The notes: generated from the letters alone by a model not told the origin. Shown: positions 37,046 through 58,516, counted from the first letter of the stretch. The stretch: 64,000 nucleotides of DNA from an uncultured bacterium (GCA_963712305.1 CAVQHI010000002.1:1212836-1276835), one strand, 5' to 3'. Translations and numbers: made by a program.

Positions 37046-38404
37046 TCAATTCACATCTACTTCTACAACTGATGCAATTCCGTCCGGTGCGTTGCCGGGA
37101 AGAGTTACTATGAGATGGCCTTGTTTTTTTTCGGCAGTTACACCGCTTCGTGATGGATCTGAGAGAAGGTGGGCTCCCGAAATATTCCCATCTATAGATG
37201 GCAATTTAAGCGTTCCATCCTTAGGCCATGAAAAGACTTCCAAATACAATTTGCCTGGTTTTGACGTCACACGTCCCCATGAGAATTGTTGTTTGAACGG
37301 ACTTGCCGTGGTGCCGTAAATCGCTTTAGCATTTACATCCAGCCATTTTCCCATCTCTTCCAGGCGTGTAACTTCCGGCTGTGGAATAATGCCTTCAGCC
37401 GTCGGTCCGACATTCAAAAGATAATTTCCGCCTTTTGACGCAATATCGATCAGGTTTCGAATAAGAGTCGTATCCGACTTGAAATCAAAGTCGTCTTTAT
37501 TATATCCCCAATCGTTGTTTATCGTCATACATGTTTCCCAGTCAGTTCCAGGGATACCGTTTGGCGGGATGTTTTGTTCCGGCGTGCCAAAATCACCAAC
37601 GGCATCTTTCATCTGTATCCCTTTCATACCACCGGGGCGTTTTCCAATACGGTTATTTATGATCAGGTTTGGATCCATTTTACGGAGATAATTGTACAAA
37701 TTTTTGCCGTCAGTATAGGTCCACCAATCGGGCCATTCACCATCGAACCAAAGTACTGCCGGATGATACTGAGTAATCAATTCCTTCAGTTGTGTCTTCA
37801 TATATGTTTTGTAGTCATCCTTTTTGCCTGGTCTAATTTTGGTGGGATTATAGGTCGGATGCTCAGGATCAGAATTATCATGCGCCATTTGATCGGGACT
37901 ATGCCAATCCATGATTGAGTAATAAACGCCAAATTTAATGCCTCGTTCTCTGCACGCCTTACTTAGAGCCTTGATAGGATCCTTGCCCCATGGAGTGTCG
38001 TCTACCACGTTATAGTTAGTCGTTTTGGTGTTAAACATGACAAAGCCATCATGGTGCTTAGACGTGATGATCATATATTTCATACCAGCTTTCTTTGCAA
38101 CGCTGACCCACTGATCAGCATTGAATTTCACCGGGTCAAATTGTTTTGCGTATTTTTCGTATTCCTTTCGTGGTACATGACCGTTAGTCATATACCATTC
38201 ACCATGCGCCGGTACGGCATAGATTCCCCAGTGAATAAACATGCCAAAACGGGCATCCTTCCACCAGTCCATCCTGTCATTCTTGTTTGTTGGGTTTGTG
38301 TTATCTGCCCCGGAATTGTTAGGTGAGAAAGACGAGAATGCAGCGAAAAGCGTAATAAATATCAACACGGAAAGGCTTGTGAGATAAAATCTGTGATTTT
38401 GCAT
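37046..38404 (-). CDS. GH29 alpha-L-fucosidase
   Basis: It has WWKDARFGMFIHWGIYAVPA, MIITSKHHDGFVMFNT, YYSIMDW and LWFDGEW, plus a signal peptide. Confidence 0.9.
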   Translation of the reverse strand: MQNHRFYLTSLSVLIFITLFAAFSSFSPNNSGADNTNPTNKNDRMDWWKDARFGMFIHWGIYAVPAHGEWYMTNGHVPRKEYEKYAKQFDPVKFNADQWVSVAKKAGMKYMIITSKHHDGFVMFNTKTTNYNVVDDTPWGKDPIKALSKACRERGIKFGVYYSIMDWHSPDQMAHDNSDPEHPTYNPTKIRPGKKDDYKTYMKTQLKELITQYHPAVLWFDGEWPDWWTYTDGKNLYNYLRKMDPNLIINNRIGKRPGGMKGIQMKDAVGDFGTPEQNIPPNGIPGTDWETCMTINNDWGYNKDDFDFKSDTTLIRNLIDIASKGGNYLLNVGPTAEGIIPQPEVTRLEEMGKWLDVNAKAIYGTTASPFKQQFSWGRVTSKPGKLYLEVFSWPKDGTLKLPSIDGNISGAHLLSDPSRSGVTAEKKQGHLIVTLPGNAPDGIASVVEVDVN

Positions 38405-38428: not shown

Positions 38429-38444
38429 ATGTTACCGTTAATAT
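38429..38444 (+). promoter_or_regulatory. LacI-type operator candidate (ATGTTACCGTTAATAT)
   Basis: It is one of five intergenic copies of ATGTTACCG and lies 25-40 nt upstream of the GH29 start on the opposite strand. Confidence 0.45.
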
Positions 38445-38563
38445 GATCAAAGTAATATTCTAAATTGAAAATAAAACTTATTATTTCATTCAATTTCTAT
38501 TACTTATGAAATGTGGTGTTATTGAGATAGGAAAGATTTGGTGAAAGAAATAAGGGGATAAAG

Positions 38564-38576
38564 TGTTACTGTAACA
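38564..38576. promoter_or_regulatory. Palindrome TGTTAC-T-GTAACA upstream of the LacI gene
   Basis: It is a perfect 6+1+6 palindrome with the same half-site as the ATGTTACCG sites, about 100 nt upstream of the LacI start at 38675. Confidence 0.45.
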
Positions 38577-38674
38577 TGTCATAAGCCAGACACCATAAAT
38601 TTCCGGAATTACAAGCTCCATTCCACTCACTGAGGTCCAAATTTCTCTGTATTTATTAATTATATCTGAAAAAA

Positions 38675-39694
38675 TTGAATAACCGTATTACAATCCGACA
38701 GATAGCCCGCGAACTTGGTATCTCGGCGATGACCGTATCAAGAGCGTTAAACAATCGATCCAATGTGGATGAAAATACGCGAAAACGTGTTCTCGAGACT
38801 GCAAAGAGTATGGGGTACAGGCCTAACCACATTGCACGTAGTCTTACGACCAAAAGGACATTTACAATTGGCGTGGTTCTTCCAAAAGTATCACATTCCT
38901 TCTTTCCTGATGCTATCAGGGGGATTGAAGAGGTTGCATACCAAAAAGACTATCAGCTGATTCTGACCCACTCATCTGAAGATGCGACGCGTGAGATAAA
39001 AGTTATTGAATCTCTGGTCTCCAAACGGGTTGACGGAATACTCATATCTTCGGCCCGAAATGTCAGGGATCTCAAACATTATAATGAGTTGTTGGAGTCG
39101 AGTTACCCGGTTGTGTTTTTTGACCGCTGGATACCTGGATTGGCCGCCAGTTCCGTGCGCACAAATGATGAGGAATGCGCCCGGCTGATTACGAACCACC
39201 TGATAGAAAAGCATGGCTATCAGAAAATAGCGCACATCAGTGGTCCGGGCAATGTATCTATTGGTGCAGAACGTTTACGGGGATTCAGACGTGCCATGGA
39301 AGAACATCAGCTGGCTATTAATGAAAGCTGGATTGTCGAAGCCGCATTTGATGAAAATACCGGATATGAGGCTACCAAAAAGCTATTGAATCTACCCAAA
39401 GAGGAGCTTCCCCGCGCCATATTTGCAGTAAATGACTCTACCGCTTTTGGAGCCATGGAAGCGATTTATGATGACGAGTTAAGAATACCTGAAGATGTTG
39501 CACTCGTAGGATTTTCTGATGATAAACAAGATAAATTACTCAATCCGCCACTAACGACAGTCCATCAGCCTGCCTACGAAGAAGGGAAGAGAGCAACGCA
39601 GATTCTCATCGACATGATCGAAGGAAAATCAACTACGATTGAGGATGTAATCGTCAAGAGTCATCTTGTAATCCGCAAGTCGTGTGGATGCTAA
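38675..39694 (+). CDS. LacI/GalR-family transcriptional regulator
   Basis: The N-terminal HTH reads ITIRQIARELGISAMTVSRALNN and is followed by a periplasmic-binding-protein-like domain (GVVLP.., DGILIS, FAVNDSTAFGA, VGFSD). The start is apparently TTG, because no in-frame ATG follows the upstream stop at 38657-38659. Confidence 0.9.
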   Translation: MNNRITIRQIARELGISAMTVSRALNNRSNVDENTRKRVLETAKSMGYRPNHIARSLTTKRTFTIGVVLPKVSHSFFPDAIRGIEEVAYQKDYQLILTHSSEDATREIKVIESLVSKRVDGILISSARNVRDLKHYNELLESSYPVVFFDRWIPGLAASSVRTNDEECARLITNHLIEKHGYQKIAHISGPGNVSIGAERLRGFRRAMEEHQLAINESWIVEAAFDENTGYEATKKLLNLPKEELPRAIFAVNDSTAFGAMEAIYDDELRIPEDVALVGFSDDKQDKLLNPPLTTVHQPAYEEGKRATQILIDMIEGKSTTIEDVIVKSHLVIRKSCGC

Positions 39695-39818
39695 TGCCTC
39701 TGTGAGAATATTGAAGTAGTGATAAGTCGGAAGTGTTGATCAGGATCTATTCAAAGTGAACAGTGTATCACTCTTTCAGTTTGAATTTCCCTACGTGAGT
39801 TCAAATATCAGCAGGCAT

Positions 39819-41222
39819 TCAAAAATCAAAATACTGTTCTGCATTGTTGTGACAAATATCGGTTATCATAGAACCGACGAGCTCCATGTCTGCCGGAATC
39901 AATCCCTTTTCAATGTCTTCACCAATCATATTACATAATACGCGCCGGAAGTATTCATGGCGTGGGTATGAAAGAAAGCTCCTGGAATCTGTCAGCATCC
40001 CCACAAAATGGCTTAACAACCCCATATTCGCGAGCGTACGCAGTTGGTCTTCTATACCATCCTTTTGATCGAGGAACCACCATGCACTGCCGAATTGCAT
40101 TTTGCCGGGTACGGAACCATCCTGGAAATTGCCGATCATGGTTGCAAAAAGGGCATTATGGACTGGATTTACATTGTAAAGTATAGTCTTAGCCAGCTGA
40201 TCATTGGTATCAAGACGATTCAGGAATTTGGAGAGAGAACGCGCCTGACTGAAATCACCCATCGAATCAAAACCTGTATCAGGACCAAGTGTCCGATACA
40301 TTCGTGTGTTGTTATTCCGAATAGCACCGAGATGGTACTGCTGTACCCATCCACTCGCATGGTCCATTTTTCCCATCTCATAAAGTACAGCACTACTGAA
40401 TTTTCTATGTTCCTGTGGATCTATGATTTCTCCCTTTAAAGCTTTTGAAAAAATATCGTCTACTTCACTCTCGGTATATTCATCTGCATAAACAGTCTCC
40501 ATACCGTGATCAGAAAGGCGGCAACCGTGGTCATGGAAGAAATCGTGACGTTGTTTTAAAGCGGCAATCAGGTCTTTGTACCTTTTTACCGTAATGCTTG
40601 ATGCGAGCGATAACTTAGTCAGCCATTTTTGATACTCTTCAGGATTGTCGATTCCCAATGCTTTGTCTGGGCGGAATGCAGGTAAAACCTTAACATCGAA
40701 GGAAGCATCTTCAGCGATTTGTTGATGAAATTCCAAGCTGTCGACCGGATCATCAGTAGTACACACAACCTGTACATTCATTTTTTTAATAATCCCCCGT
40801 GCAGACAGTTCAGACTTGGAAAGAAGTTCATTGCAATGTTTCCAGATCCGCTCTGCACTTTTTTCGTTGAGCAGTTCATGTACATCGAAATAACGGAGAA
40901 GCTCCAGATGGGTCCAGTGAAAAAGAGGATTTCCAAGAGTCTTGGGTACGACTTTTGCCCATTCAAGAAATTTTTCCCAGTCGGTGGCATTACCGGTTAT
41001 ATATTTTTCATCGACTCCTGCAGTACGCATTGCACGCCATTTGTAATGGTCGCCATAGAGCCATATGTGCGTCAGGTTCTTGAACTGCGTGTTTTTGGCA
41101 ATATCCTCGACGGGAATGTGACAGTGATAGTCTATGATGGGAAGCCCTTCTGCATAGTCATTATACAGAGCTTTAGCAGTATCATTATGTAATAAAAAAT
41201 CATCGGTAATAAATGCGGACAT
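39819..41222 (-). CDS. uxaC: Glucuronate (uronate) isomerase
   Basis: It begins MSAFITDDFLLHNDTAKALYNDYAEGLPIIDYHCHI, the classic UxaC N-terminus, and also has YGDHYKWRAMR and WWFLDQKDG. The tracked ORF starts 12 codons earlier, at 41258. Confidence 0.92.
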   Translation of the reverse strand: MSAFITDDFLLHNDTAKALYNDYAEGLPIIDYHCHIPVEDIAKNTQFKNLTHIWLYGDHYKWRAMRTAGVDEKYITGNATDWEKFLEWAKVVPKTLGNPLFHWTHLELLRYFDVHELLNEKSAERIWKHCNELLSKSELSARGIIKKMNVQVVCTTDDPVDSLEFHQQIAEDASFDVKVLPAFRPDKALGIDNPEEYQKWLTKLSLASSITVKRYKDLIAALKQRHDFFHDHGCRLSDHGMETVYADEYTESEVDDIFSKALKGEIIDPQEHRKFSSAVLYEMGKMDHASGWVQQYHLGAIRNNNTRMYRTLGPDTGFDSMGDFSQARSLSKFLNRLDTNDQLAKTILYNVNPVHNALFATMIGNFQDGSVPGKMQFGSAWWFLDQKDGIEDQLRTLANMGLLSHFVGMLTDSRSFLSYPRHEYFRRVLCNMIGEDIEKGLIPADMELVGSMITDICHNNAEQYFDF

Positions 41223-41383
41223 GATACCCTTCTTTTCGTGTGATGTTACTGATAACATAATTTTTGGAATATAATAAGCTTGATGATGTAATTTGTAAAG
41301 CTTATCAAAGATAAGAATTGCTTTAAATCCTAATCATGATAATATTCCGGTTGAATTTGACCCAATCTAGTTAATAAAAAAAC

Positions 41384-41399
41384 ATGTTACCGCAAACAT
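41384..41399 (+). promoter_or_regulatory. LacI-type operator candidate (ATGTTACCGCAAACAT)
   Basis: The outer ATGTT/AACAT pair is perfectly palindromic around a central CG. It lies in the divergent uxaC/GH92 intergenic region. Confidence 0.45.
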
Positions 41400-41692
41400 A
41401 AAAAGTGCATTTCTAATCTGATTTCCTTGTCGGTTCTTTCCCTTTGGAAGTCTATGTATCTGTCCGTATATCAAATCATTCTGGTGTATCAGATACTTTA
41501 CCATAAAAGGGATGTATTATTGCTTTCAACCAAGCCCGGAGTAATCAATCGATATTAAGATAAATAAGTGCTTTCGGGTCTGGTAAAAGATAAGATGCAT
41601 CGTTAGTTTATACCATAGGTTAGCAGAAAATAGGTTATGGTATAATATGAAGAAATTGCTTTTTTGGGAATAATCGTTAAACAGGTGAAATA

Positions 41693-43999
41693 TTGAAAGT
41701 CGTCCTTGGTTTGATTGGGGTGCTGCTGATAGTAATAATCAGCACCTATGTATTTCAGAAAGGATCTGATGCCGTCGATTTTGCGGATCCGATGATTGGA
41801 ACGACTATGGATGGCAACGTGGCCCCAAACGTTGGAGTGCCGTTTGGAATGACACAGTGGACAGCACAAACGATGCCTCCGAAAAAGAAAGGTGTTCCTC
41901 CGTACAGATATTTTGATCCCATGATTCAGGGTTTCCGTGCCTCACACTGGTTAAGTGGTGGAGCTACTCAGGATTATGGCAGTATGACCCTTATGCCTGC
42001 GGTTGGCCCGCTAAAAGTAAATCCGGAGGACCGGGCATCGGCTTTCAGCCACGAAGAGGAGATATCTACACCCTATTATTACAAGGTCAATCTCCAGGAT
42101 TATAATATCGAGGCAGAAATGACAGCCACATCTCACGCTGGATTTCTGCGTTTTACATTCCCCGAATCGGATTCTTCTTATGTCATTATCGATGCAAATG
42201 CGGGATATCAACCGACACAAAAAAACACAAAAGGAGATGGATATATCCGCATTATCCCCGAAAAAAATGAAATTGTTGGATTTAATCCCGTCTATCGAAT
42301 GTATCAGGGATGGGGAGATCCGGCCGGTTTTTCAGGGTATTTTGTTGTCCAATTCAGACAGCATTTTGATAGTTTCGGCATTTGGAATCCTGGTAACTTT
42401 GCTGAAGATGATTCTACGGAATCCCATGACCGCCCCATAGCATATGTCCGTTTTTCAACAGGTTATAACGACGCCGTCGACATTAAAGTTGGTACATCAT
42501 TCACAAGCATTGGGGCTGCAGAAAAAAATCTGAATGATGAAATCCCATCCTGGAGTTTTAATCAAACGAGATTCGCGGCGAAACAAACATGGAATGATCA
42601 GTTAAGTAAAGTTGAAGTATCCGGTGGGACTCAGGAAGAGAAGAAGATATTCTATTCAGCTCTATACCATGCATTCCAATTGCCGCGGGTCATCAGCGAT
42701 GATGATGGTTCGTACATGAGTTTTGGCAGCCATCATGTGATAAAAAAGGCTGACGGATATACTCAGTATGGCGATTTTTCTCTTTGGGATACATTCAGGG
42801 CAGAACAGCCTTTGATCACTCTGCTGGATCCTGATAAAGCAAGGGATATGATCGTTTCTTTAATCAAAAAAGGGGAGGAAGGTGGCTTTTTGCCGATCTT
42901 TCCGGCCTGGAATAACTACACTTCGGAAATGATTGGTGATCATGCAATTTCCGTTATTGCCGATGCATATATTAAGGGTATTCATGGTTTTGATGCGGAT
43001 TCTGCCTATGTGATGATGAAAAAGAATGCAACGGAATTGCCGGCATCAGACTCAGCATATGCAAAGGGCATGGGAAGACGTGCGCTTGACGCCTATTTAA
43101 AATATGGATACATCCCACTCGAAGATTCTGTTAAGTACGCCTTCCATATGGGAGAACAGGTATCACGAACGCTGGAATATGCCTACGACGACTGGGTGCT
43201 TGGACAGATGGCGCGAGCACTGGGAAATCAAAAAGATTACGAAGAGTTTAATAAGCGTGGCCAGAATTTCAGGAATGTGTTTGACTCGACCACCGGATTT
43301 GTTCGAGGCAAATATGCTAATGGATCCTGGGTCAAACCGTTTGAACCTGATGTCCCATATCCTTATATCACAGAAGGGACTTCATGGCAATATAGTTGGT
43401 ATGTTCCCCAAGACGTCCCTGCGCTAATAAAACTTATGGGAGGACGTCAGAAATTCACTGATAAGTTGGATACTCTTTTTGAGCAAGCCATCAGTGATAA
43501 CCCCTCGTTTCGTAAGAACCCGTATTATTGGCATGGAAACGAACCGGATCAACTTGCTCCGTATCTTTATGATTATGCCGGCAGACCATGGAAGACGCAG
43601 TACTGGGTACGACAGATCATAAAACGATCATACCAGGATAATGCAGGTGGTTTGCCCGGAAATGATGATGCCGGACAAATGTCGGCCTGGTACGTTTTTA
43701 GTGCCATGGGATTTTATCCGGTATGTCCGGGAAAACCTGAGTACGCCATCGGAAGTCCGCTGTTTGATAAGGTAGTGTTACATCTCAAAGGAAATAAAAC
43801 ATTTACAATTATTGCCAGAGATAATTCGAATACGAATATGTATATCCAGTCTGCGAAACTAAATGGAAATACGTTAAACAAACCATGGATATCGCACTAT
43901 GATATCATTAATGGAGGAACTCTCGAGCTGCAAATGGGTAATAAACCGAATACAGACTGGGGAAAGCAACAAAGTGAAAGAATAAATAAATCTCGATAG
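41693..43999 (+). CDS. GH92 alpha-mannosidase
   Basis: It has DFADPMIGTT..GNVAPNVGVPFGMTQWT and GNEPDQLAPYLYDYAGRPWKTQYWVRQI..GLPGNDDAGQMSAWYVFSAMGFYPV. The start is apparently TTG, the only start-like codon after the in-frame stop at 41678, followed by a hydrophobic anchor. Confidence 0.92.
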   Translation: MKVVLGLIGVLLIVIISTYVFQKGSDAVDFADPMIGTTMDGNVAPNVGVPFGMTQWTAQTMPPKKKGVPPYRYFDPMIQGFRASHWLSGGATQDYGSMTLMPAVGPLKVNPEDRASAFSHEEEISTPYYYKVNLQDYNIEAEMTATSHAGFLRFTFPESDSSYVIIDANAGYQPTQKNTKGDGYIRIIPEKNEIVGFNPVYRMYQGWGDPAGFSGYFVVQFRQHFDSFGIWNPGNFAEDDSTESHDRPIAYVRFSTGYNDAVDIKVGTSFTSIGAAEKNLNDEIPSWSFNQTRFAAKQTWNDQLSKVEVSGGTQEEKKIFYSALYHAFQLPRVISDDDGSYMSFGSHHVIKKADGYTQYGDFSLWDTFRAEQPLITLLDPDKARDMIVSLIKKGEEGGFLPIFPAWNNYTSEMIGDHAISVIADAYIKGIHGFDADSAYVMMKKNATELPASDSAYAKGMGRRALDAYLKYGYIPLEDSVKYAFHMGEQVSRTLEYAYDDWVLGQMARALGNQKDYEEFNKRGQNFRNVFDSTTGFVRGKYANGSWVKPFEPDVPYPYITEGTSWQYSWYVPQDVPALIKLMGGRQKFTDKLDTLFEQAISDNPSFRKNPYYWHGNEPDQLAPYLYDYAGRPWKTQYWVRQIIKRSYQDNAGGLPGNDDAGQMSAWYVFSAMGFYPVCPGKPEYAIGSPLFDKVVLHLKGNKTFTIIARDNSNTNMYIQSAKLNGNTLNKPWISHYDIINGGTLELQMGNKPNTDWGKQQSERINKSR

Positions 44000-44140
44000 T
44001 GTGAATAAGAACAGAATCCTTAAGTTTTAGCTGATTTTATGCTGTGTGTTGACTTATTAAATTAAATATTCTAACTGATAGCAGGATTCACAACTTTCAC
44101 AAAGTTCTTTTATAGATTAAAACGGCTGAAACGCCATTTG

Positions 44141-44155
44141 ATGTTACCGATAACT
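44141..44155 (+). promoter_or_regulatory. LacI-type operator candidate (ATGTTACCGATAACT)
   Basis: GTTAC-CG-ATAAC is a perfect GTTAnCGnTAAC palindrome, 96 nt upstream of the GH28 start. Confidence 0.5.
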
Positions 44156-44250
44156 CCTGTGATTTTTCTGTATCTGTGGAATTAGATCAAAAAGGTTTAT
44201 GAGATTGGTTTAAAATAAAATCGTAAAACCGAATAAAATATAAGGTAAGT

Positions 44251-45813
44251 ATGGACATCACTCGAAAATCAGCCCTCAGAAAGATGGGTGCACTCGTTGG
44301 AACGACGGCTTTAATGGGATTTACCAGGCCGCGGATAGCATCAGGTGATCAACGCAACAGTGACTATAATGTCAAAGACTACGGTGCGAAAGGTGATGGA
44401 CAGACCAGCGATACCAATGCAATAAATGATACAATAGCTGCAGCGGCAAAGGCCGGCGGCGGACGAGTGTATTTCCCATCCGGTACCTATCTTACGGGCT
44501 CTATTCATTTAAAAAGCAATGTCTCCTTGTATCTTGAGCAGGCGGCAGTTCTGGAGGCAATAAGTGATTCGGGTTCATATGATCCTGCCGAACCATTTTC
44601 CGGCAAACAGTACCAGGATTTTGGCCATAGTCACTGGCATAATAGTTTGATATGGGGCGAAGACTTGCAAAATATTTCGATATTAGGTCCGGGGATGATT
44701 TATGGAAAAGGCCTGTTGCGGAATGTTGCAAAGAATGCATCAGAGAAAGGATTAGGAAACAAATCGATCGCGTTGAAGAATTGCCGCAATGTGATTTTGA
44801 AGGATTTCATCATCAAACATGGTGGCTGGTTTGGGATTTTGGCAACGGGCGTAGATAATTTTACCATAGACAATTTAAAAATCGATACCAATCGCGACGG
44901 GATGGATATCGATGCCTGCCGGAACGTCCGGGTATCAAACTGCAGTGTAAATTCCCCGTATGATGATGCTATTTGTCCCAAGAGTTCCTACGCCCTGGGT
45001 TATGCCAGGTCCACGGAAGATGTTACAATCACCAACTGCATGGTTTCAGGATTCCAGGAAGGAACGTTGCTTGATGGTACATTCAAGCCCTACACTGATA
45101 AGGAAAGGAGTAATCCGACAGGGCGAATTAAGTTCGGAACCGAGTCAAATGGCGGGTTTAAGAATATCACGATTTCTAACTGCGTGTTTAACCACTGCCG
45201 TGGACTGGCCCTGGAGACTGTAGACGGTGCATTATTGGAAGATGTGTCGATTTCCAATATTACGATGCGCAATGTGGGTAACGCCCCGATATTCATGAGA
45301 CTGGGAAGCCGTATGCGCGGCCCGAGCAGTATACCAATTGGGCAGATCAGAAGAGTCAATATCGACAACGTTGTTGTGAGCAATGCCGACAATAAGACCG
45401 GAGTATTGATAAGTGGAATTCCAAATCACCCTATCAAGGACATCAAGATCAGCAATGTGAGAATTGAATACGAAGGCGGAGGCACCAAAGAAGATGCCGG
45501 CATAGAACCGCCTGAAAAAGCGGATGGTTACCCGGAACCGGGTATGTTTGGTAAAATGCCGTCCTACGGATTCTATTTGCGTCATGTCGAAGGGATAGAA
45601 ATCACAAACGTAAAACTGAGTTATCAAAAAGATGACGCCCGGCCTGCTTTTGTGCTCCATGACGTGAAAGATGCAGATTTTCGTTTTATTAAAGTTCAGC
45701 GTGGTCCGAATTCACACGCCTTCTCCTTAAACAATGTTGAAGATTTCAGTATCTATGATTCGGAATCAATGTCTGATACCAAAATCAGTAAAGCTGATCA
45801 CAAACTGTTATAG
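44251..45813 (+). CDS. GH28 polygalacturonase/rhamnogalacturonase-family pectin hydrolase
   Basis: The N-terminus reads YNVKDYGAKGDGQTSDTNAINDTIAAAAKAGGGRVYFPSGTYLTGSIHL. Parallel beta-helix motifs NRDGMDI, DDAICPKS and GRIKFGTE are present. Confidence 0.85.
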   Translation: MDITRKSALRKMGALVGTTALMGFTRPRIASGDQRNSDYNVKDYGAKGDGQTSDTNAINDTIAAAAKAGGGRVYFPSGTYLTGSIHLKSNVSLYLEQAAVLEAISDSGSYDPAEPFSGKQYQDFGHSHWHNSLIWGEDLQNISILGPGMIYGKGLLRNVAKNASEKGLGNKSIALKNCRNVILKDFIIKHGGWFGILATGVDNFTIDNLKIDTNRDGMDIDACRNVRVSNCSVNSPYDDAICPKSSYALGYARSTEDVTITNCMVSGFQEGTLLDGTFKPYTDKERSNPTGRIKFGTESNGGFKNITISNCVFNHCRGLALETVDGALLEDVSISNITMRNVGNAPIFMRLGSRMRGPSSIPIGQIRRVNIDNVVVSNADNKTGVLISGIPNHPIKDIKISNVRIEYEGGGTKEDAGIEPPEKADGYPEPGMFGKMPSYGFYLRHVEGIEITNVKLSYQKDDARPAFVLHDVKDADFRFIKVQRGPNSHAFSLNNVEDFSIYDSESMSDTKISKADHKLL

Positions 45814-45931
45814 TCCTTTTGGGCCGTTTTGTTGAAAATCCCATAGGTTTCTGTAGGCAGTAAGATTCGACAGTCAATCTAACGTGAAACGAAGAGTAAT
45901 GTCGGTATACCTGTAACTATGATTTTTATTT

Positions 45932-45946
45932 ATGTTACCGATACCA
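45932..45946 (+). promoter_or_regulatory. LacI-type operator candidate (ATGTTACCGATACCA)
   Basis: It shares the 11-mer ATGTTACCGAT with the sites at 44141 and 58516 (minus strand) and lies 32 nt upstream of the GH31 start. Confidence 0.45.
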
Positions 45947-45977
45947 GGTACCATGATTAATTGTAAAAGGATATAAT

Positions 45978-47990
45978 ATGTTCCGGAAAATTTGTTACGT
46001 ATGCTCGGTATTGATTGTATTTTTTTGTTTTAAATGGACCCCTGATGCCTCGGCAAAACCAAATAAACCTGTCAAAGTTGATATTTGGTCTGGCAAAGCA
46101 TCGATTAATAATGGAATTGTCCAGGTTCAGTACCATAGCAATCCGTTAGAACTGATCGTCAGGAAGGGGAATAAAACAGTTTTCAAATCGGCGAGTGACG
46201 GATTCCTGTCATTTAAATCCAATAATAAAACTCATGACCTGCAGGGTTCAGATGAAATTCATCGGTTGTTCCAGGGATTTCGAACCGAATTGAAGACAAA
46301 GGATGGTCAGAAGGCTCAACTGCAAGTAACCCTGGATTCCAAAGGACAACTTCGAATTGAATTTACTCCGGAGGTGGATCATGTTGATGGAGTTACGGTG
46401 AATCTAAATCAGACGTCTGGCGAACATTACTATGGGTTAGGTGATGTCTGGCACACGAAACACGTCGACCTTAAGGGAAGCAGGGTCGTACTCTGGGATG
46501 AATCGGGGACTCCAGACCAGTGCAGTTACGTGCCTTTTTTCATGTCTACTGCCGGATACGGCATCTTTATGGATAATTCCTACTATGATTATGTAGATTT
46601 CAGCAAGGCAAATCAAAGTGAAACATCTATTCATTTTGATGCTTCATCATTGTCGATGCATTTATGGGTTGGAGACACCATGAAGGAAATTCTGCCACAA
46701 TACCTGAACCTGACCGGTCATCCTCCAATGCCACCCAAATGGACGTTTCTGCCCCAGCAATGGCGGGACGAAGGTACGTGGGATGATGTCTTCAAGGACG
46801 TTCACATGATGCAGCAAAATGATATGCCGCTTGGAGCCGTCTGGCTGGACCGACCCTGGATGCGCGGCGGATATGGAAGTGATGATTTCATTTTTGACGA
46901 GAAACGATATCCGGATGCAGAAAAACACATAAAAGAGCTTCATTCAATGGGGGTCCATCTGATTGTGTGGGGCTGCGATTTCCTGACCAGGGATTCCAAA
47001 TACTACAAAGAGGGCAAGAAGGATCATTATTTTGTAGGTGGATTTGGGGTCCATAATGAAGGCGTGGATAATGGGTTGCAGAGACATCTGATCGATTTTG
47101 CCAATCCGGCTGCCCGTGAGTGGTTTAAGGGCATCATCAAAAATGTTCTGAAAATGGGCGTGGACGGCATCAAGCTGGACAGGGGACAGAACTACCCGGT
47201 AAACGTGACCCCGCCAAGCGGACGAGATCCCAAAGCCATGCACAACTACCATGCGTATCTGATGGATAAAACCTATGCCGAAGCATTGCAGGAAGTTCGG
47301 GGCAATGATTACCAGTTTACTCCGCGCGCCGGATGGGCAGGCACACAGGCGTGGTCGATGAAGTGGCCTGGTGATATGGAAAGCAACTTTAGCAATGATC
47401 AGGGACTTCCTGCCGTTGTGCGGGCACAACAGACGGCGGCATTGACGGGTTTTGCATTCTGGGGTTCGGATATTGGGGGGTACGGAAGCAATCTGTCCAA
47501 AAACGTGTTCATCAGATGGCTGGAATTTGGCACGTTTAGTCCACTGATGGAAACCGCTGGTAAAGGTGATCATAATGATTCTCCATTTTCCTGGGACAAA
47601 ACGACAGTGACGATCTATAAATTTTATTCTCAATTACGGAAGAATATGATTCCCTACATCGAGGCCCAGGCTAAGAAAGCTCACGAAGAAGGAACCCCAA
47701 TTGTCCGGCCTCTTGCATGGGACTGGCCGGATGATTCAAAAGTTTTTTCTCTGGATTATGAGTATATGTTTGGACAAGATCTGTTGGTGGCACCGGTAGT
47801 TAACAAGACGAATAGCCGTGAAGTCTATCTTCCAAAAGGAAAGTGGATTGATTTTTGGGATCGTGATCGTGTAATTGAAGGGCCAATAATGTTGAATGAA
47901 AAGGTTCCCCTATGGAAGATCCCTCTCTTTATTCGGGCAGAATCACCGTTTAAGTTACCGTTGCCTGATGTGAGTTTATCCGGAAAGTAA
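45978..47990 (+). CDS. GH31 alpha-glycosidase (alpha-glucosidase/alpha-xylosidase-like)
   Basis: It has VWLDRPWM, GVDGIKLDRGQ (nucleophile region), WPGDMESNF, WGSDIGGY and VRPL..DWP, plus a signal peptide. Confidence 0.8.
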   Translation: MFRKICYVCSVLIVFFCFKWTPDASAKPNKPVKVDIWSGKASINNGIVQVQYHSNPLELIVRKGNKTVFKSASDGFLSFKSNNKTHDLQGSDEIHRLFQGFRTELKTKDGQKAQLQVTLDSKGQLRIEFTPEVDHVDGVTVNLNQTSGEHYYGLGDVWHTKHVDLKGSRVVLWDESGTPDQCSYVPFFMSTAGYGIFMDNSYYDYVDFSKANQSETSIHFDASSLSMHLWVGDTMKEILPQYLNLTGHPPMPPKWTFLPQQWRDEGTWDDVFKDVHMMQQNDMPLGAVWLDRPWMRGGYGSDDFIFDEKRYPDAEKHIKELHSMGVHLIVWGCDFLTRDSKYYKEGKKDHYFVGGFGVHNEGVDNGLQRHLIDFANPAAREWFKGIIKNVLKMGVDGIKLDRGQNYPVNVTPPSGRDPKAMHNYHAYLMDKTYAEALQEVRGNDYQFTPRAGWAGTQAWSMKWPGDMESNFSNDQGLPAVVRAQQTAALTGFAFWGSDIGGYGSNLSKNVFIRWLEFGTFSPLMETAGKGDHNDSPFSWDKTTVTIYKFYSQLRKNMIPYIEAQAKKAHEEGTPIVRPLAWDWPDDSKVFSLDYEYMFGQDLLVAPVVNKTNSREVYLPKGKWIDFWDRDRVIEGPIMLNEKVPLWKIPLFIRAESPFKLPLPDVSLSGK

Positions 47991-48215
47991 GTTATTGTCT
48001 GCGATAGAACATCTTGATCTTACCGCTTTTTTATTCATTATGGAGAGGCTGTAGTACACTGGAGATCATCGTGAAGGATAATTCCATTTAGAATATGTAC
48101 ATTCAATTCACACTATAAATAGTACATCTTGTATCAAGCTCTGGATTCCGGTTTAATCTATGATGGCTATTAAGATGTTAACCTGATAACCTATATACAG
48201 GGTGAGGGAACAAGG

Positions 48216-50210
48216 ATGATGATGTCGCGATTCAATGTATTAACCATATCCATACTATTGATCGCAGTTATTAGCCAACCAGCTGATGCGCAGGAAAATA
48301 ATGGCTGGATACCTTTAGCTAAAAAGTATTCATTGCGTGATTTGTCGTCAATTATCATCCCAAGAGAACAATGGCACCCCTATCCATCGGTTCAAGATCC
48401 GGCTGGCTTTGGTAAAGTTCCGGAGGATGTCAAACAAGAATACATAAAAGAAGGGGAGTCGTTGTTAAACGCAAAATGGCCAAGACTGCCGGCAACCACC
48501 TTCCTTGAGTTCAAAAGAAACGGCAACAGATCTAATTATGAGAGATTGTCCTTTCAGCGACGCCAAATGTTGGCCAAACTTGTTCTGGCGGAGTCTTTTG
48601 AAAGGAAAGGCCGGTTTGTAGACCAGATTATTAACGGAATATGGGCGATTTGCGAAGAGTCGTTTTGGGGAGTTCCTGCTCATTTGTCGTTGCAGAAAGA
48701 AGGACCCGGCCTGCCTGATGTTGAACATCCTGTAGTCGATCTTTTCGCGGCCGAAACGGCTCAGGAGATGGCCTGGACCTATTACCTTCTTAAACCTGAA
48801 CTGGATAGTGTGAATCCTCTCGTAGCTGTCAGGATAGAATACGAAACACAAAGGAGGATTTTTATCCCGTACCTCGAACATAATGACTGGGGATATCTCG
48901 GGTTTGAATGGCGAAGCAATCCTGAAAAGTATAACCGAGTCAATAACTGGAACCCGTGGATTAATTCGAATGTGTTGTCAGCTGCGTTAGTGCTCGCTAA
49001 AGATCCGGATACGCGGTTGAAGCTTGTGTACAAGACTATGGACAGCATCGATAATTTCGTCATTCCATATCCGGCAGATGGCGGAAGTGACGAAGGACCC
49101 GAATACTGGGGAAGAGCGGCCGGCAGCTTGCTCGATTACCTGGAAATTCTAAAAAGCGCTTCTGGTGGAAAGATTGATTATTTCAATCAGTCTGTCATTA
49201 AGAAGATGGGTGAATATATCTATAAGACGAATATCAGTTATCCCTATTACGTCAACTATGGAGACGCCGATGCAAAGATGGAAATGGATCCAACCTTGCT
49301 TTACAGGTTTGGCAAATCGTCGCATGATTCATTGCTCACCCATTTTGCAGCATTTGAGTACGGAAAACAGACGCGGAATGGATTGTCCTCGGTCCTGGAT
49401 TATCCTTTCGGTGCATTGAACAGGGCACTTCCCGCTTTAATGTGTCTTGCTGATCTGCAGGATATCAAACCCGAAGAGCCTTTGATCAGAGACAGTTGGT
49501 TTCCCGAAATTCAGATCATGACAGCACGTTCGAAACAGGGAACATCAGATGGTTTTTATGTGATGGCAAAGGCTGGAAATAACGGTGTGAGTCACAATCA
49601 CAATGATGCCGGTAATTACATTGTCTACTACAATGGAAATCCTTTGCTGATTGATGCAGGGGCACAAGACTATACCGCTAAAACATTCAGCAGCAGGCGC
49701 TATGAACTTTGGAACAACCAATCCCGATATCATAATTTGCCCGATATAAACGGAATTATGCAGCACAATGGAAAACAGTTTAAGGCAACAGATATTTCAT
49801 ACACCGAAAATAACAGGAAGGCCACGCTAAAGTTAAATATTGCAGGAGCTTATCCTGATTCTGCATTTATAGATAAATGGGTTCGTACTATTACCCTGAA
49901 TCGCAATAAGAATGTTGAGGTAAGCGAGAATTATTCTCTTGGCAAATTTATCAAACCTGTTGCAGAAAACTTTCTGACTCCATGCAAGCCGGATATCAGT
50001 ACGGCCGGGAAAATTGCTTTGCCTGATCCTGATAGTGGTCATACCTGCTACATTGAATATGACAGCCATAAGTTTACTCCCAGTGTAGATGTCCGTACGA
50101 TTAATGATCATCGCATGAGACGTAATTGGGGAAGCACTTTATACCATATCGTGTTGCATTCTGTAAGTCGTAGTTCGCATGATCGTTTTACGTTAAAAAT
50201 TACGAGTTAG
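48216..50210 (+). CDS. Heparinase II/III-like protein (polysaccharide-lyase-like)
   Basis: The C-terminal Hepar_II_III signature is GVSHNHNDAGNYIVYYNGNPLLIDAG, preceded by an N-terminal alpha/alpha-toroid-like region. A signal peptide is present. Confidence 0.65.
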   Translation: MMMSRFNVLTISILLIAVISQPADAQENNGWIPLAKKYSLRDLSSIIIPREQWHPYPSVQDPAGFGKVPEDVKQEYIKEGESLLNAKWPRLPATTFLEFKRNGNRSNYERLSFQRRQMLAKLVLAESFERKGRFVDQIINGIWAICEESFWGVPAHLSLQKEGPGLPDVEHPVVDLFAAETAQEMAWTYYLLKPELDSVNPLVAVRIEYETQRRIFIPYLEHNDWGYLGFEWRSNPEKYNRVNNWNPWINSNVLSAALVLAKDPDTRLKLVYKTMDSIDNFVIPYPADGGSDEGPEYWGRAAGSLLDYLEILKSASGGKIDYFNQSVIKKMGEYIYKTNISYPYYVNYGDADAKMEMDPTLLYRFGKSSHDSLLTHFAAFEYGKQTRNGLSSVLDYPFGALNRALPALMCLADLQDIKPEEPLIRDSWFPEIQIMTARSKQGTSDGFYVMAKAGNNGVSHNHNDAGNYIVYYNGNPLLIDAGAQDYTAKTFSSRRYELWNNQSRYHNLPDINGIMQHNGKQFKATDISYTENNRKATLKLNIAGAYPDSAFIDKWVRTITLNRNKNVEVSENYSLGKFIKPVAENFLTPCKPDISTAGKIALPDPDSGHTCYIEYDSHKFTPSVDVRTINDHRMRRNWGSTLYHIVLHSVSRSSHDRFTLKITS

Positions 50211-50337
50211 GCATGGGAGTGAGATTCCATTTATTTCTACGCAAATGATTTATGGTACTTTGCCATGATCAGGTTGAATCTCGTAGAACAATTGTAAATT
50301 TTCATTTGATGATATCAATACAAAAGCTGGAGTTAAT

Positions 50338-52791: not shown

Positions 52792-52804
52792 AACTCTTAC
52801 CCCT

Positions 52805-52824
52805 AAATCCCCTTAAGGGGATTT
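52805..52824 (+). terminator. Hairpin AAATCCCC-TTAA-GGGGATTT followed by TTGTTGTTG
   Basis: It is a perfect 8-bp stem located 14 nt after the GH3 stop, with a T-rich tail. Confidence 0.65.
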
Positions 52825-52851
52825 TTGTTGTTGAATTTTTCCACGTTTCCT

Positions 52852-52898
52852 CGTTCCCAAGCTCTGCCTGGGAACGCAACTCGGGAAGCTCTGCTTCC
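52852..52898 (+). repeat. Twin GC-rich hairpins sharing AAGCTCTGC
   Basis: One hairpin is CGTTCCCA-agctctgcc-TGGGAACG (52852-52876) and the other is GGAAGC-tct-GCTTCC (52884-52898). The 9-mer AAGCTCTGC occurs in both. Confidence 0.5.
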
Positions 52899-53060
52899 TT
52901 GTTTCTTAGGGGAAAATAAATGAAGCAGTTATGTTGAAATGATAATTGGTATCGATTATCAAAACCCCCTTTATGTGATTTAGGGGTAAAAAAACAGGTA
53001 GCATTGAGAACCGAGCGTCTCTTATTTAAAAGAATGTAGAATTAAAGAATTGATTATATC

Positions 53061-54320: not shown

Positions 54321-54494
54321 ATCGGTTGAGAGCCGATTCCTATTAAATGATTGAGCACTCCGGTTTCAATTATATCTCGATATCGCTTTGTCTATGTTAG
54401 CGTTAAAAAGTAAATTCGGGTTAGTTCTCGCAGAGTAACGCGGATGACACGCTGAGTTTCTCAGATATTAGAGATTAATGAATCCATTTACAGA

Positions 54495-56662: not shown

Positions 56663-56667
56663 ATGAT

Positions 56668-57423: not shown

Positions 57424-57576
57424 GATTTGGGAAGCGGTCAGTCGGTTGCTACATAGGAGCCCCCCGGACAAACCGTCAGGCCGCCATCTGAATGTTAGAT
57501 TTCACTTTTTGGTCTCTCTTTTAGATGGAATAGGTTCCCATTATTCCATGAATTCTGGGTTAAACAGCAAGTTCTA

Positions 57577-57599
57577 ATGAATTAGTTCTAAAGCAGATT
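57577..57599 (+). promoter_or_regulatory. 23-nt element ATGAATTAGTTCTAAAGCAGATT immediately upstream of lutA
   Basis: About 20/23 positions repeat at 58479-58500 upstream of lutB (ATGAATTAGT-CTAATGAAGATT). Its first 11 nt also occur upstream of rhaI. Confidence 0.35.
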
Positions 57600-57604
57600 T
57601 AATA

Positions 57605-58423: not shown

Positions 58424-58501
58424 CGGCATTGAGACAAGTTTTGATCGGTTTTTTCCTTAGAAAATTTTAAATCATTTCATGAATTAGTCTAATGAAGATT
58501 G

Positions 58502-58516
58502 TTCCATCGGTAACAT
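58502..58516 (-). promoter_or_regulatory. LacI-type operator candidate (minus-strand ATGTTACCGATGGAA)
   Basis: The plus strand reads TTCCATCGGTAACAT. This is the fifth intergenic ATGTTACCG copy, about 90 nt upstream of lutB. Confidence 0.4.

What the first reader, a model, noticed from the sequence alone, without database searches (positions are those of the whole stretch)
38429..45946. ATGTTAC-CG operator-like motif found only in intergenic DNA around the LacI gene: a candidate local regulon
The 9-mer ATGTTACCG occurs five times in the window: on the plus strand at 38429, 41384, 44141 and 45932, and on the minus strand at 58516-58508. Every copy is intergenic, although intergenic DNA is only about 9% of the window, and roughly 0.5 chance hits are expected overall. 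Three copies share ATGTTACCGAT. The sites are imperfect palindromes around a central CG, the classic LacI/GalR operator layout. For example, 44143-44154 is a perfect GTTAnCGnTAAC, and 41384-41399 is a perfect ATGTTnnCGnnAACAT. A 6+1+6 perfect palindrome with the same half-site (TGTTAC-T-GTAACA, 38564-38576) lies about 100 nt upstream of the LacI gene itself, which suggests autoregulation. The predicted targets are GH29 fucosidase, uxaC and/or GH92, GH28, GH31 and lutB. These mix fucose, uronate and mannose functions.
Basis: partly seen in the sequence, partly recalled or inferred. Interest (0 to 1): 0.6.

Follow-up and report, generated by a model that had tools for sequence, protein, structure and literature searches.

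The report
LacI-family repressor operators in a sugar-use gene cluster
The repeated ATGTTACCG words are half-sites of 16-bp CG-centred palindromes that almost certainly serve as binding sites for the neighbouring LacI-type sugar repressor; this is a well-supported but ordinary local regulon in an uncultured Balneolales bacterium.

Summary
The motif is real, but it was described imperfectly. ATGTTACCG occurs 7 times, not 5, against 0.34 expected; two copies lie in coding DNA. The functional unit is a 16-bp palindrome, ATGTTACCGGTAACAT.

A matrix trained only on related genomes gives six window hits of at least 14 bits:
- 38429, 24 nt upstream of GH29
- 41384, in the uxaC/GH92 spacer
- 44141, upstream of GH28
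- 45932, upstream of GH31
- 50365, in GH3 codons 10-15

Five of the six are intergenic. The lutB copy scores 7.5 bits, which is noise.

Sites at 38429, 41243 and 41384 persist, with symmetric substitutions, in relatives whose LacI is 84-94% identical while the flanking DNA diverges. A 68% ortholog carries four near-perfect TGTTACCGGTAACA sites. A hinge-helix residue (Thr versus Val after the conserved Leu) tracks operator position 7 (C versus A/T/G).

The 13-bp TGTTAC-N-GTAACA upstream of lacI is conserved in four relatives' loci, and its central base varies.

Verdict: a new member of a known kind. The nearest analogue is the predicted Bacteroides UxaR, which also sits next to uxaC. Protein binding, the effector, and GH28/GH31 membership remain inferred.

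The parts
38675..39694 (+). LacI-family regulator gene (339 aa, TTG start). It is the only LacI-family gene among the window proteins scanned (SusC/SusD were not scanned).
   Evidence: Pfam LacI HTH plus Peripla_BP_1/3/4 domains. The DNA-binding domain aligns without gaps to CcpA 1RZR/1ZVV, including the TVSR and ARxL hinge motifs.
38429..38444 (.). Operator A, ATGTTACCGTTAATAT, 24 nt upstream of the GH29 fucosidase ATG and 230 nt upstream of lacI.
   Evidence: 20.5 bits. It sits at a matching position next to GH29 in L002 and L099 (24-25 nt upstream of the ATG), and in the same spacer in L014/L017. In L099 it has changed to the better palindrome CTGTTATCGATAACAT. L003, which lacks GH29, keeps it.
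38564..38576 (.). 13-bp perfect palindrome TGTTAC-T-GTAACA, 98 nt upstream of lacI. Its half-sites match the operators but are spaced 1 bp closer. It is a candidate autoregulatory site.
   Evidence: Present at the same place in L002/L018 and L099 (centre base A) and in L014 and L017 (centre base T), with diverged flanks. It is absent from L003 and from more distant orthologs.
41243..41258 (.). Operator B, ATGTTACTGATAACAT, in the uxaC leader. It lies 20 nt upstream of the probable true start (ATG at 41222) and about +6 to +22 relative to the conserved promoter.
   Evidence: 21.2 bits, the top hit in the window. It is nearly invariant (15 of 16 positions) in the L001, L003 and L017 alignment and identical in L002 and L014, but absent from L099.
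41271..41299 (-). Sigma-70-like uxaC promoter, TTTACA-17-TATTAT.
   Evidence: 10 of 12 consensus matches. Both hexamers are invariant in the four-genome alignment and are recognisable in L099.
41384..41399 (.). Operator C, ATGTTACCGCAAACAT, in the uxaC/GH92 divergent spacer. It probably heads the rightward glycosidase genes.
   Evidence: 18.1 bits. It is present in every close relative that covers this spacer, with sequence variation: ATGTTACCGGAAACAT, ATGTTATCGGTAACGT, GTGTTACCGTGAACAT, GTGTTACCGGAAACAT. L099 keeps it although B is lost.
44141..44156 (.). Operator D, ATGTTACCGATAACTC, 94 nt upstream of the GH28-type rhamnogalacturonidase gene.
   Evidence: 19.7 bits from a matrix that contained no homologue of this site. 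It is identical in L014, but the spacer there is 94% identical overall, so that conservation is uninformative.
45932..45947 (.). Candidate operator E, ATGTTACCGATACCAG, 30 nt upstream of GH31.
   Evidence: 14.5 bits. GH31 and this site are absent from the 94% relative L014. The nearest GH31 homologues (67-68% identity) carry no such motif.
50365..50380 (.). Candidate operator F, GCGTTACCGGTAACCA, within codons 10-15 (signal peptide) of GH3.
   Evidence: 14.6 bits. L001 has a palindrome at the same codon position, GCATTATCGATAACAT, with a symmetric C7:G10 to T7:A10 change. L003 and L099 have none.
54394..54409 (.). Weak candidate ATGTTAGCGTTAAAAA, 85 nt upstream of the enolase-superfamily sugar-acid dehydratase gene.
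   Evidence: 11.1 bits. No orthologous spacer was available: L003 lacks this gene.
58501..58516 (.). Single half-site copy (GTTCCATCGGTAACAT) in the lutA-lutB gap. It is not supported as an operator.
   Evidence: 7.5 bits, within the noise range. It lies between G+C-rich hairpin-like sequences.
37046..38404 (-). GH29 alpha-L-fucosidase gene, predicted target of operator A.
   Evidence: Pfam Alpha_L_fucos. The site-to-ATG distance is conserved at 24-25 nt in L002 and L099.
39819..41222 (-). uxaC (uronate isomerase), predicted target of operator B. It is linked to the regulator in every ortholog at 84% identity or above.
   Evidence: Pfam UxaC, 714 bits. Synteny. Start revised from 41258 to 41222.
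41693..54320 (+). Rightward genes that are predicted or possible targets: GH92, GH28-type rhamnogalacturonidase, GH31, heparinase II/III-like, GH3, DUF2264.
   Evidence: Pfam and NCBIfam annotations. In relatives the block after operator C is a 750-aa GH31-like protein, GH92 and GH3 in L099 (L001 is similar and adds DUF2264), or GH3-DUF2264 in L003.

Best explanation
The ATGTTACCG words are the better-conserved half of 16-bp, CG-centred, imperfect palindromes with consensus ATGTTACCGGTAACAT. These are operators for the LacI-family repressor encoded at 38675-39694. The proposed mechanism is as follows. A dimer binds each operator through its helix-turn-helix domains, with the hinge helices inserted at the central CpG. 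This blocks transcription of GH29 (operator A, 24 nt upstream of the ATG), of uxaC (operator B, about +6 to +22 from a conserved TTTACA-17-TATTAT promoter), and of the rightward glycosidase genes (operator C; probably D for GH28; possibly E for GH31 and F for GH3). A sugar-derived effector then releases the repressor. The effector is most likely an intermediate of hexuronate catabolism, because uxaC is the invariant neighbour and a 68% ortholog sits beside KduI, a KduD-like SDR and GH88. What is shown: the sites exist, are far above chance, are intergenic, and are conserved with symmetric turnover next to orthologous regulators; and the regulator has a complete LacI-type architecture. What is inferred: physical binding, repression rather than activation, the identity of the effector, and membership of GH28, GH31 and GH3.
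For: 1. The 9-mer occurs 7 times against 0.34 expected.
2. A matrix built only from sites in other genomes gives six window hits of at least 14 bits. Five are in the 9.5% of the window that is intergenic, and all lie within 12 kb of lacI. Markov shuffles give about 1 hit at 12 bits or more, against 7 observed. Unrelated loci give 0.48 hits at 14 bits or more per 64 kb.
3. Sites A, B and C and the uxaC -35/-10 hexamers are islands of conservation in alignments that are 58-70% identical overall.
4. Site A has turned over to a different, better palindrome in L099, and site C has several variants that keep the CG centre.
5. The 68% ortholog locus L012/L021 has four sites within 1-2 mismatches of ATGTTACCGGTAACAT beside KduI, a KduD-like SDR, GH88 and the regulator gene itself.
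6. Across 58 loci carrying homologous regulators there are 77 hits in 139 kb of non-coding DNA and 21 hits in 507 kb of coding DNA.
7. Regulators with ARSLT have C at operator position 7. Paralogs, which almost all carry A(K/R)SLV, have A, T or G there.
8. Domain architecture and the ungapped match to the CcpA DNA-binding domain.
9. [quoted passage not shown]
Against: - No binding or expression data exist.
- Paralogous regulators (53-55% identical) in the same two MAGs as L002 and L003 have almost the same motif near them (L004, L005). The sites could therefore be shared with, or belong to, a paralog.
- Operator B is missing in L099.
- Operator C lies 190-340 nt from the first rightward gene, and no conserved rightward promoter was found.
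- D and E could not be tested by comparison.
- The matrix is not independent of sites A-C, because it was trained on their homologues; only D, E and F are new predictions.
- No classical operator lies directly in front of lacI in this clade.
- The rest of the genome could not be scanned.
Confidence: 0.8

Rival explanations
1. The sites are real LacI-type operators, but they are bound mainly by a paralogous or global LacI-family regulator encoded elsewhere in the genome. The neighbouring regulator would be incidental, or would share the sites through cross-talk.
For: Regulators only 50-60% identical, from many lineages, have ATGTTAnCGnTAACAT sites beside unrelated sugar genes such as SSF transporters, GH2 and 3-keto-disaccharide hydrolase. 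Paralogs with such sites occur in the same MAGs as L002 and L003 (L004, L005). The degenerate right halves of the window sites (T, A or G at position 7) resemble the paralog motif.
Against: The sites cluster within 12 kb of this regulator in every relative. The ATGTTAC-CG half-site with C at position 7 is specific to the ARSLT ortholog group. The 68% ortholog carries a site 21 nt before its own start codon.
Confidence: 0.1
2. The recurrence of ATGTTACCG is a by-product of something other than a transcription-factor site, such as a dispersed repeat (REP or MITE fragment), a promoter element, or a compositional accident.
For: Two copies lie in coding DNA with no palindromic partner. The lutB copy sits among hairpin-like G+C-rich sequences in an unusually long intra-operon gap.
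Against: The flanks of the copies share no similarity. The intergenic copies upstream of GH29, uxaC/GH92, GH28 and GH31 have a partner half-site at the fixed 16-bp register; the lutB copy does not. The sites are conserved while the flanks diverge, and they change symmetrically. No Rfam family matches. The hairpin-rich sequence near lutB is unique in the window.
Confidence: 0.03
3. The 13-bp palindrome TGTTAC-N-GTAACA upstream of lacI is the site of a different DNA-binding protein, not of this regulator, so there is no autoregulation.
For: Its half-site spacing is 1 bp shorter than in all 16-bp sites, and it lacks the central CpG into which LacI-family hinge helices insert. Scored in the 16-bp register it falls below 6 bits. 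It is absent from L003 and from more distant orthologs.
Against: Its half-sites are identical to the operator consensus. All 12 half-site bases are invariant in loci from four relatives while the central base and the flanks vary. More distant relatives carry a normal operator directly upstream of the regulator gene (L012, L006, L047). Odd-length or flexible spacing is documented for a minority of LacI-family factors (PMC4052901).
Confidence: 0.35

Closest known systems
Predicted LacI-family hexuronate regulators of Bacteroides: UxaR BT0824, with KdgR BT0487, UxuR BT1434 and UxmR BT3613 (Ravcheev et al. 2013, PMC3878776; 2014, PMC4052901)
   Same: A LacI-family regulator is encoded next to uxaC (BT0823-BT0824 in B. 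thetaiotaomicron). It is predicted to control a small local regulon. Some of those regulons (KdgR, UxmR) also reach a few extracytoplasmic enzymes.
   Different: Orthology to BT0824 was not tested here, and no operator sequences were available for comparison. In Bacteroides the UxaR targets are cytoplasmic catabolic genes (uxaC, uxaB). Here most predicted targets are glycoside hydrolases (GH29, GH92, GH28, possibly GH31 and GH3), and no uxaB, uxaA, kdgK or kdgA lies in the window. The organism is an uncultured Balneolales bacterium, not a Bacteroides.
CcpA-cre complex of Bacillus (PDB 1RZR, 1ZVV, 3OQM)
   Same: It is the closest solved structure (E = 7e-59). The DNA-binding domain aligns without gaps, and TVSR and the hinge Leu are conserved. 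From my own knowledge, cre is likewise a 14-16 bp pseudo-palindrome with a central CG (TGTAAGCGCTTACA against TGTTACCGGTAACA here).
   Different: From my own knowledge, CcpA is a global regulator that needs the HPr-Ser-P corepressor. Here the sites cluster locally around the regulator gene, and there is no indication of a protein corepressor.
E. coli LacI, GalR and PurR operator systems (own knowledge)
   Same: Dimeric binding to palindromes, with operators overlapping or just downstream of the promoter. There is precedent for auxiliary operators flanking a promoter (lac O1/O3, gal OE/OI) and for a 1-bp difference in central spacing (natural lac O1 versus the symmetric operator).
   Different: The protein ends at residue 339 without a LacI-type tetramerisation helix. 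Looping between operators B and C (141 bp apart) is therefore not expected from the sequence alone and is untested.

Membership tests
LacI/GalR-family repressor-operator system | The regulator has an N-terminal LacI-type HTH with a hinge helix, and a C-terminal periplasmic-binding-protein-like sugar-binding domain. | tested here: met
   Pfam PF00356 (residues 6-51) plus PF00532/PF13377/PF13407. Ungapped alignment to the CcpA DNA-binding domain, with TVSR and the ARSL hinge.
LacI/GalR-family repressor-operator system | The operator is an even palindrome (16-22 bp) with a central CG. | tested here: met
   The consensus ATGTTACCGGTAACAT was derived from orthologous loci. Window sites have 2-3 mismatches and a central CG (TG in site B). 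The 13-bp element at 38564 does not meet this criterion.
LacI/GalR-family repressor-operator system | Sites lie in non-coding DNA a short distance upstream of target genes, typically 30-140 bp from the start codon. | tested here: met
   Gaps to the start codons are A 24 nt, B 20 nt, D 94 nt and E 30 nt. C lies further away (293 nt to GH92), and F lies inside GH3 codons 10-15.
LacI/GalR-family repressor-operator system | Sites are conserved upstream of orthologous genes in related genomes. | tested here: met
   A, B and C are conserved in L001, L002, L003, L014, L017 and L018. L099 keeps A and C but has lost B. D and E were not testable. The sites near lutB and the rhamnose operon did not pass.
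LacI/GalR-family repressor-operator system | Specific binding of the protein to the sites, relieved by a small-molecule effector. | not testable with these tools
   There is only indirect support: co-variation of the residue after the hinge Leu (Thr versus Val) with operator position 7.
LacI/GalR-family repressor-operator system | Autoregulation, meaning a site upstream of the regulator's own gene (72% of studied family members). | tested here: inconclusive
   Site A is 230 nt upstream of lacI, and the non-canonical 13-bp palindrome is 98 nt upstream. The 68% ortholog has a canonical site 21 nt upstream of its own start.
Bacteroides-type UxaR/KdgR hexuronate regulators | The regulator gene is adjacent to uronate-catabolism genes and carries sites upstream of them. 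| tested here: met
   uxaC is the convergent neighbour in the window and in every ortholog at 84% identity or above. Operator B lies in its leader. The 68% ortholog sits beside KduI, a KduD-like SDR and GH88.
Bacteroides-type UxaR/KdgR hexuronate regulators | Orthology (reciprocal best hit or tree position) with BT0824, BT0487 or BT1434. | not tested
   The Bacteroides sequences were not retrievable with the tools used. No NCBIfam equivalog reached its cut-off; the best was RbsR at 238 bits against a cut-off of 382.
Bacteroides-type UxaR/KdgR hexuronate regulators | The regulon contains the remaining pathway genes (uxaB/uxaA or uxuB/uxuA, kdgK, kdgA). | tested here: inconclusive
   None of these genes is in the 64-kb window. 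The rest of the genome could not be scanned.
Dispersed repeat (REP/MITE) | Copies share extended flanking similarity, and the copy number is unrelated to gene function. | tested here: not met
   The flanks are dissimilar. Only the 16-bp core is conserved between genomes.

The most novel reading that the evidence does not exclude
The same repressor recognises two operator geometries. One is the canonical 6+CG+6 core used at its target promoters. The other is a 6+1+6 core (TGTTAC-N-GTAACA) kept for autoregulation in its own upstream region. It may also use an operator embedded in the signal-peptide codons of GH3 as a roadblock. That would make this clade a natural test case for how spacing tolerance of the LacI hinge sets graded affinities within one regulon. 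It would also show a LacI-type factor, rather than the usual hybrid two-component, SusR or ECF systems, coordinating exo-glycosidases for fucose, mannose, rhamnogalacturonan and uronate in a Bacteroidota-like polysaccharide locus.
Probability: 0.25. Interest if true: 0.45.

Novelty: new member of a known kind. Interest (0 to 1): 0.27.

Why it matters
This gives a concrete, testable regulon for an uncultured Balneolales lineage. It provides a regulator, a 16-bp consensus operator, four strong operators and a mapped promoter-operator arrangement at uxaC. It links uronate catabolism to fucosidase, mannosidase and rhamnogalacturonidase genes, which helps assign a substrate to a large and otherwise opaque carbohydrate-use region. 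It also corrects the uxaC start codon. The pairing of Thr/Val after the hinge Leu with C versus non-C at operator position 7 is a small addition to the specificity code of LacI-family factors. None of this changes how the family is understood. It is a good annotation rather than a discovery.

Tried and rejected
1. lutB as a target was rejected. The site has one half only, scores 7.5 bits, and sits at a level where 8-20 chance hits are expected.
2. A site upstream of the rhamnose operon (26674, 11.5 bits) is not conserved in L003. The 73% ortholog L010 does have a strong site (18.2 bits) between its regulator and the rhamnose operon, so this is recorded as weak rather than dismissed.
3. GH31 homologues were fetched to test sites D and E. 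The nearest are only 67-68% identical. They lie in SusC/D pectin-type loci where the GH28-GH31 pair is conserved, but they carry no motif, so they are uninformative.
4. L014 was tried as a footprinting partner for site D. The spacer is 94% identical throughout, so it has no resolving power.
5. The dispersed-repeat or hairpin-element explanation for the lutA-lutB copy was checked. The G+C-rich sequence there is unique in the window.
6. An Rfam scan of the whole window found nothing.
7. I looked for a conserved rightward promoter next to operator C and found no convincing shared -35/-10.
8. Bacteroidetes-type TAnnTTTG promoter boxes were looked for by eye near sites A and lacI. There was no exact match. 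The uxaC promoter is of the sigma-70 type instead.
9. The supplement of PMC3878776 was searched for Bacteroides UxaR/KdgR operator sequences. It holds gene lists only.


Full report
**Observation.** An exact search finds ATGTTACCG seven times in the window, against 0.34 expected from dinucleotide-preserving shuffles; no shuffle reaches 7. Two more were missed. One is 6858(+), inside ORF 6440-8137. The other is 60585(-), inside the lutC ORF. Neither has a second half-site. Intergenic DNA is 9.5% of the window on a simple ORF map.

**What the unit is.** I scored every 16-mer against the idealised palindrome ATGTTACCGGTAACAT. It also found a better site that was missed: ATGTTACTGATAACAT at 41243-41258. 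Two further candidates are GCGTTACCGGTAACCA at 50365 and a weak site at 54394. The 9-mer is simply the better-conserved left half. The right halves are degenerate (GTTAATAT, GATAACAT, GCAAACAT, GATAACTC, GATACCAG).

**Gene context**. The window is a large carbohydrate-use region containing:
- GH106 and GH78 rhamnosidases, a CE15-like esterase, and a 1099-aa/510-aa gene pair read as SusC/SusD by size only (not scanned);
- a rhamnose catabolic operon with a SorC-type regulator, and an amylase;
- GH29 fucosidase (37046-38404, minus strand);
- the LacI-family gene (38675-39694);
- uxaC (minus strand);
- GH92, a GH28-type rhamnogalacturonidase (NCBIfam BT4146-type, 722 bits), GH31, a heparinase II/III-like protein, GH3 and DUF2264;
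- a non-phosphorylative fucose/rhamnose-type pathway with lutABC.

The listed uxaC ORF starts at an ATG that lies inside the 41243 site. Orthologs align only from residue 8-12 onward, and relatives call a 467-aa protein. The true start is therefore almost certainly the ATG at 41222 (MSAFITDDFLL), and the site is in the leader.

**Source and relatives.** The regulator is 100% identical to a protein on a 2.03-Mb contig. Its nearest named relatives are Balneolales and Balneolaceae MAGs. I fetched orthologous loci at these identities:
- 94%: L014, L017
- 88%: L001, L002, L018
- 84-85%: L003, L099
- 73%: L010
- 68%: L012 = L021, L020

I also fetched about 50 loci with 50-60% homologues and 30 loci with distant homologues (38-43%).

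**Independent matrix test.** A weight matrix built only from sites in other genomes gave these top window hits:

| Position | Bits | Location |
|---|---|---|
| 41243 | 21.2 | uxaC leader |
| 38429 | 20.5 | upstream of GH29 |
| 44141 | 19.7 | upstream of GH28 |
| 41384 | 18.1 | uxaC/GH92 spacer |
| 50365 | 14.6 | GH3 codons 10-15 |
| 45932 | 14.5 | upstream of GH31 |

Five of these six are intergenic, and all lie within 12 kb of the regulator gene. Seven hits reach 12 bits or more, against about 1.0 in Markov shuffles. With a slightly enlarged matrix (two window sites added), the 398 kb of distant-homologue loci gave 0.48 hits of at least 14 bits per 64 kb. One caveat applies: the training sites are homologues of A, B and C, so only 44141, 45932 and 50365 are truly new predictions. 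The lutB copy scores 7.5 bits, which is indistinguishable from background.

**Phylogenetic footprints.** The GH29-lacI spacer was aligned for four genomes and is 70% identical overall. In it, the 16-bp site A and the 13-bp palindrome stand out as conserved blocks. The spacer beyond uxaC is 58% identical overall. Its invariant blocks are site B, a -10-like TATTAT and a -35-like TTTACA with 17-bp spacing, and site C. The promoter scan independently reports this promoter as a 10/12 match. That places site B at about +6 to +22, a classical repressing position.

The sites also turn over in the way binding sites do:
- Site A is ATGTTACCGTTAATAT in the window and CTGTTATCGATAACAT in L099. The L099 version is a better palindrome, and both lie 24-25 nt from the GH29 ATG.
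- Site C appears as ATGTTACCGCAAACAT, ATGTTACCGGAAACAT, ATGTTATCGGTAACGT, GTGTTACCGTGAACAT and GTGTTACCGGAAACAT.
- L099 has lost site B but keeps site C. In different relatives the first rightward gene after C is a 750-aa GH31-like protein, GH92 or GH3. C is therefore best read as the operator of the rightward glycosidase genes. Its distance to them is 190-340 nt, and I could not find a conserved rightward promoter.
- The B-C centre spacing is 141, 141, 140 and 144 bp in four genomes, while the DNA beyond C varies widely in length. This is noted but not explained.

**Wider family.** The 68% ortholog has four sites within 1-2 mismatches of ATGTTACCGGTAACAT. They lie beside DUF4861, KduI, a KduD-like SDR and GH88, and one lies 21 nt before its own start codon. 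Across 58 loci with regulators at least 50% identical, hits of 12 bits or more number 77 in 139 kb of non-coding DNA and 21 in 507 kb of coding DNA. Some loci overlap, so these counts are approximate. The 50-60% homologues sit next to unrelated sugar genes such as SSF transporters, GH2 and 3-keto-disaccharide hydrolase, so they are paralogous groups that share nearly the same motif.

A tabulation of DNA-binding domains against nearby sites shows a pattern. All regulators in the ortholog group read ARSLT after the hinge Leu and have TGTTAC-CG half-sites. Paralogs, almost all of which read A(K/R)SLV, have TGTTA(A/T/G)-CG. This co-variation supports assigning the C7 sites to this regulator. It is effectively one clade against the rest, so it is not independent replication. 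It also shows that cross-talk with paralogs is a real alternative. Paralogs with such sites exist in the same MAGs as L002 and L003 (L004, L005).

**The 13-bp element.** TGTTAC-N-GTAACA occurs once in the window at zero mismatches. It occurs at the same position upstream of lacI in L002/L018, L014, L017, L066 and L099. Its central base is T or A and its flanks have diverged. L003 and more distant orthologs lack it. More distant relatives instead carry a normal operator directly upstream of the regulator gene. Its half-sites match the operator exactly, but they are 1 bp closer together and there is no central CpG. Published surveys report odd or flexible spacing for only about 4% of LacI-family factors (PMC4052901). 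I rate binding by this regulator as somewhat more likely than not, but unproven.

**Sites D, E and F.**
- D (44141) is a strong hit 94 nt upstream of the rhamnogalacturonidase gene. The only relative that carries this gene (L014) is 94% identical across the whole spacer, so its conservation tells us nothing.
- E (45932) is moderate. GH31 and E are missing from L014, so this is an accessory gene. Its nearest homologues (67-68%) keep the GH28-GH31 pairing in SusC/D pectin-type loci but have no motif.
- F lies in codons 10-15 of GH3. L001 has a palindrome at the same codon position with a symmetric C7:G10 to T7:A10 change, but L003 and L099 have none. This is suggestive only.

**Comparison with what is known.** The protein has the full LacI/GalR architecture. 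Its closest solved relatives are CcpA and PurR. The DNA-binding domain aligns without gaps to CcpA, including TVSR and the hinge Leu. No NCBIfam equivalog reaches its cut-off. The site layout matches the family norms compiled by Ravcheev et al. 2014 (PMC4052901). The nearest functional analogue is the predicted Bacteroides UxaR (BT0824), encoded next to uxaC (BT0823), together with KdgR, UxuR and UxmR (PMC3878776). The predicted target set here consists mostly of glycoside hydrolases rather than cytoplasmic pathway enzymes.

**Mechanism and confidence.** The most likely mechanism (about 0.8) is this. A dimeric LacI-type repressor binds operators A-D, and possibly E and F. It blocks the GH29, uxaC and rightward glycosidase promoters. 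It is released by a sugar-derived effector, probably from hexuronate catabolism. The effector guess rests on two points: uxaC is linked to the regulator in every ortholog at 84% identity or above, and the 68% ortholog is linked to KduI, a KduD-like SDR and GH88. What is shown is the sites, their statistics, their conservation and the protein family. What is inferred is binding, the sign of regulation, the effector, and membership of GH28, GH31 and GH3.

**Verdict.** This is a correct, well-supported but ordinary finding: a new member of the known class of local LacI-family sugar regulons. Minor points of interest are the odd-spaced element upstream of the regulator, the possible intragenic site in GH3, and the Thr/Val-position 7 correlation.

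Noticed in passing
window 41220-41258 (minus strand): The longest uxaC ORF begins at an ATG that is part of operator B. Orthologs align only from residue 8-12, and relatives call a 467-aa protein. The true start is probably the ATG at 41222 (MSAFITDDFLL), preceded by AAGAAGGG.
   Followed up: yes
window 45814-48215; L014 17040-17535: GH31 (45978-47990), together with its upstream candidate operator, is absent from the 94% relative L014, where GH28 is followed directly by the heparinase II/III-like gene. This is an accessory-gene presence/absence difference. GH31's nearest homologues are only 67-68% identical.
   Followed up: partly
window 41243-41399; L001 2588-2744; L003 12596-12751; L017 12564-12723: The centre-to-centre distance between operators B and C is 141, 141, 140 and 144 bp in four genomes, although the intervening sequence is poorly conserved and the DNA beyond C varies in length by more than 100 bp. 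This may reflect a spacing constraint such as looping, even though the protein lacks a LacI-type tetramerisation tail.
   Followed up: no
L004, L005, L006 and L023-L065 (regulators 50-60% identical): Many paralogous LacI-family groups in Balneolales, Ignavibacteria and Bacteroidota-type contigs share almost the same operator, ATGTTAnCGnTAACAT. It usually lies just downstream of the regulator gene, in front of SSF transporters, GH2, M24-like or 3-keto-disaccharide hydrolase genes. The residue after the hinge Leu (Thr versus Val) tracks operator position 7.
   Followed up: partly
window 58337-58604: There is an unusually long 268-bp gap between lutA and lutB. It contains G+C-rich hairpin-like sequences (CCCCTAACCCCCTTCGCCAGGGGGGA; CTCCCCA-14-TGGGGAG) that are unique in the window. 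The lone half-site copy of the motif sits between them.
   Followed up: partly
window 54495-62482: This gene cluster looks like a non-phosphorylative L-fucose/L-rhamnose pathway joined to lactate utilisation. It encodes an enolase-superfamily sugar-acid dehydratase, an FAH-family hydrolase (didehydro-deoxy-rhamnonate hydrolase-like, below cut-off), SDRs, an L-fucono-1,5-lactonase-like amidohydrolase (299 bits, below cut-off) and lutABC.
   Followed up: no
L010 12025-12040; window 26674-26689: In the 73% ortholog locus the regulator lies next to the rhamnose catabolic operon, with a strong site (AAGTTACCGGTAAAAT) between them. In the window the matching position has only a weak site (GTGTTATCAGTAATGT, 11.5 bits), which is not conserved in L003.
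   Followed up: partly
window 35075-35090; L017 6432-6447: A palindrome-like sequence, GAGTTACTAATAACGT, lies in the SorC-amylase divergent spacer. It has a central TA instead of CG. L017 has GAGTTACTAATAACAT (12.7 bits). Its status is unknown.
   Followed up: no
window 6858-6866 and 60585-60593; 16122-16137: Two exact 9-mer copies lie inside coding DNA with no partner half-site. A 13.3-bit palindrome-like hit (ATGTTGCTGCTAACAT) lies inside the 1099-aa SusC-like ORF (14936-18235). All three are probably chance.
   Followed up: partly
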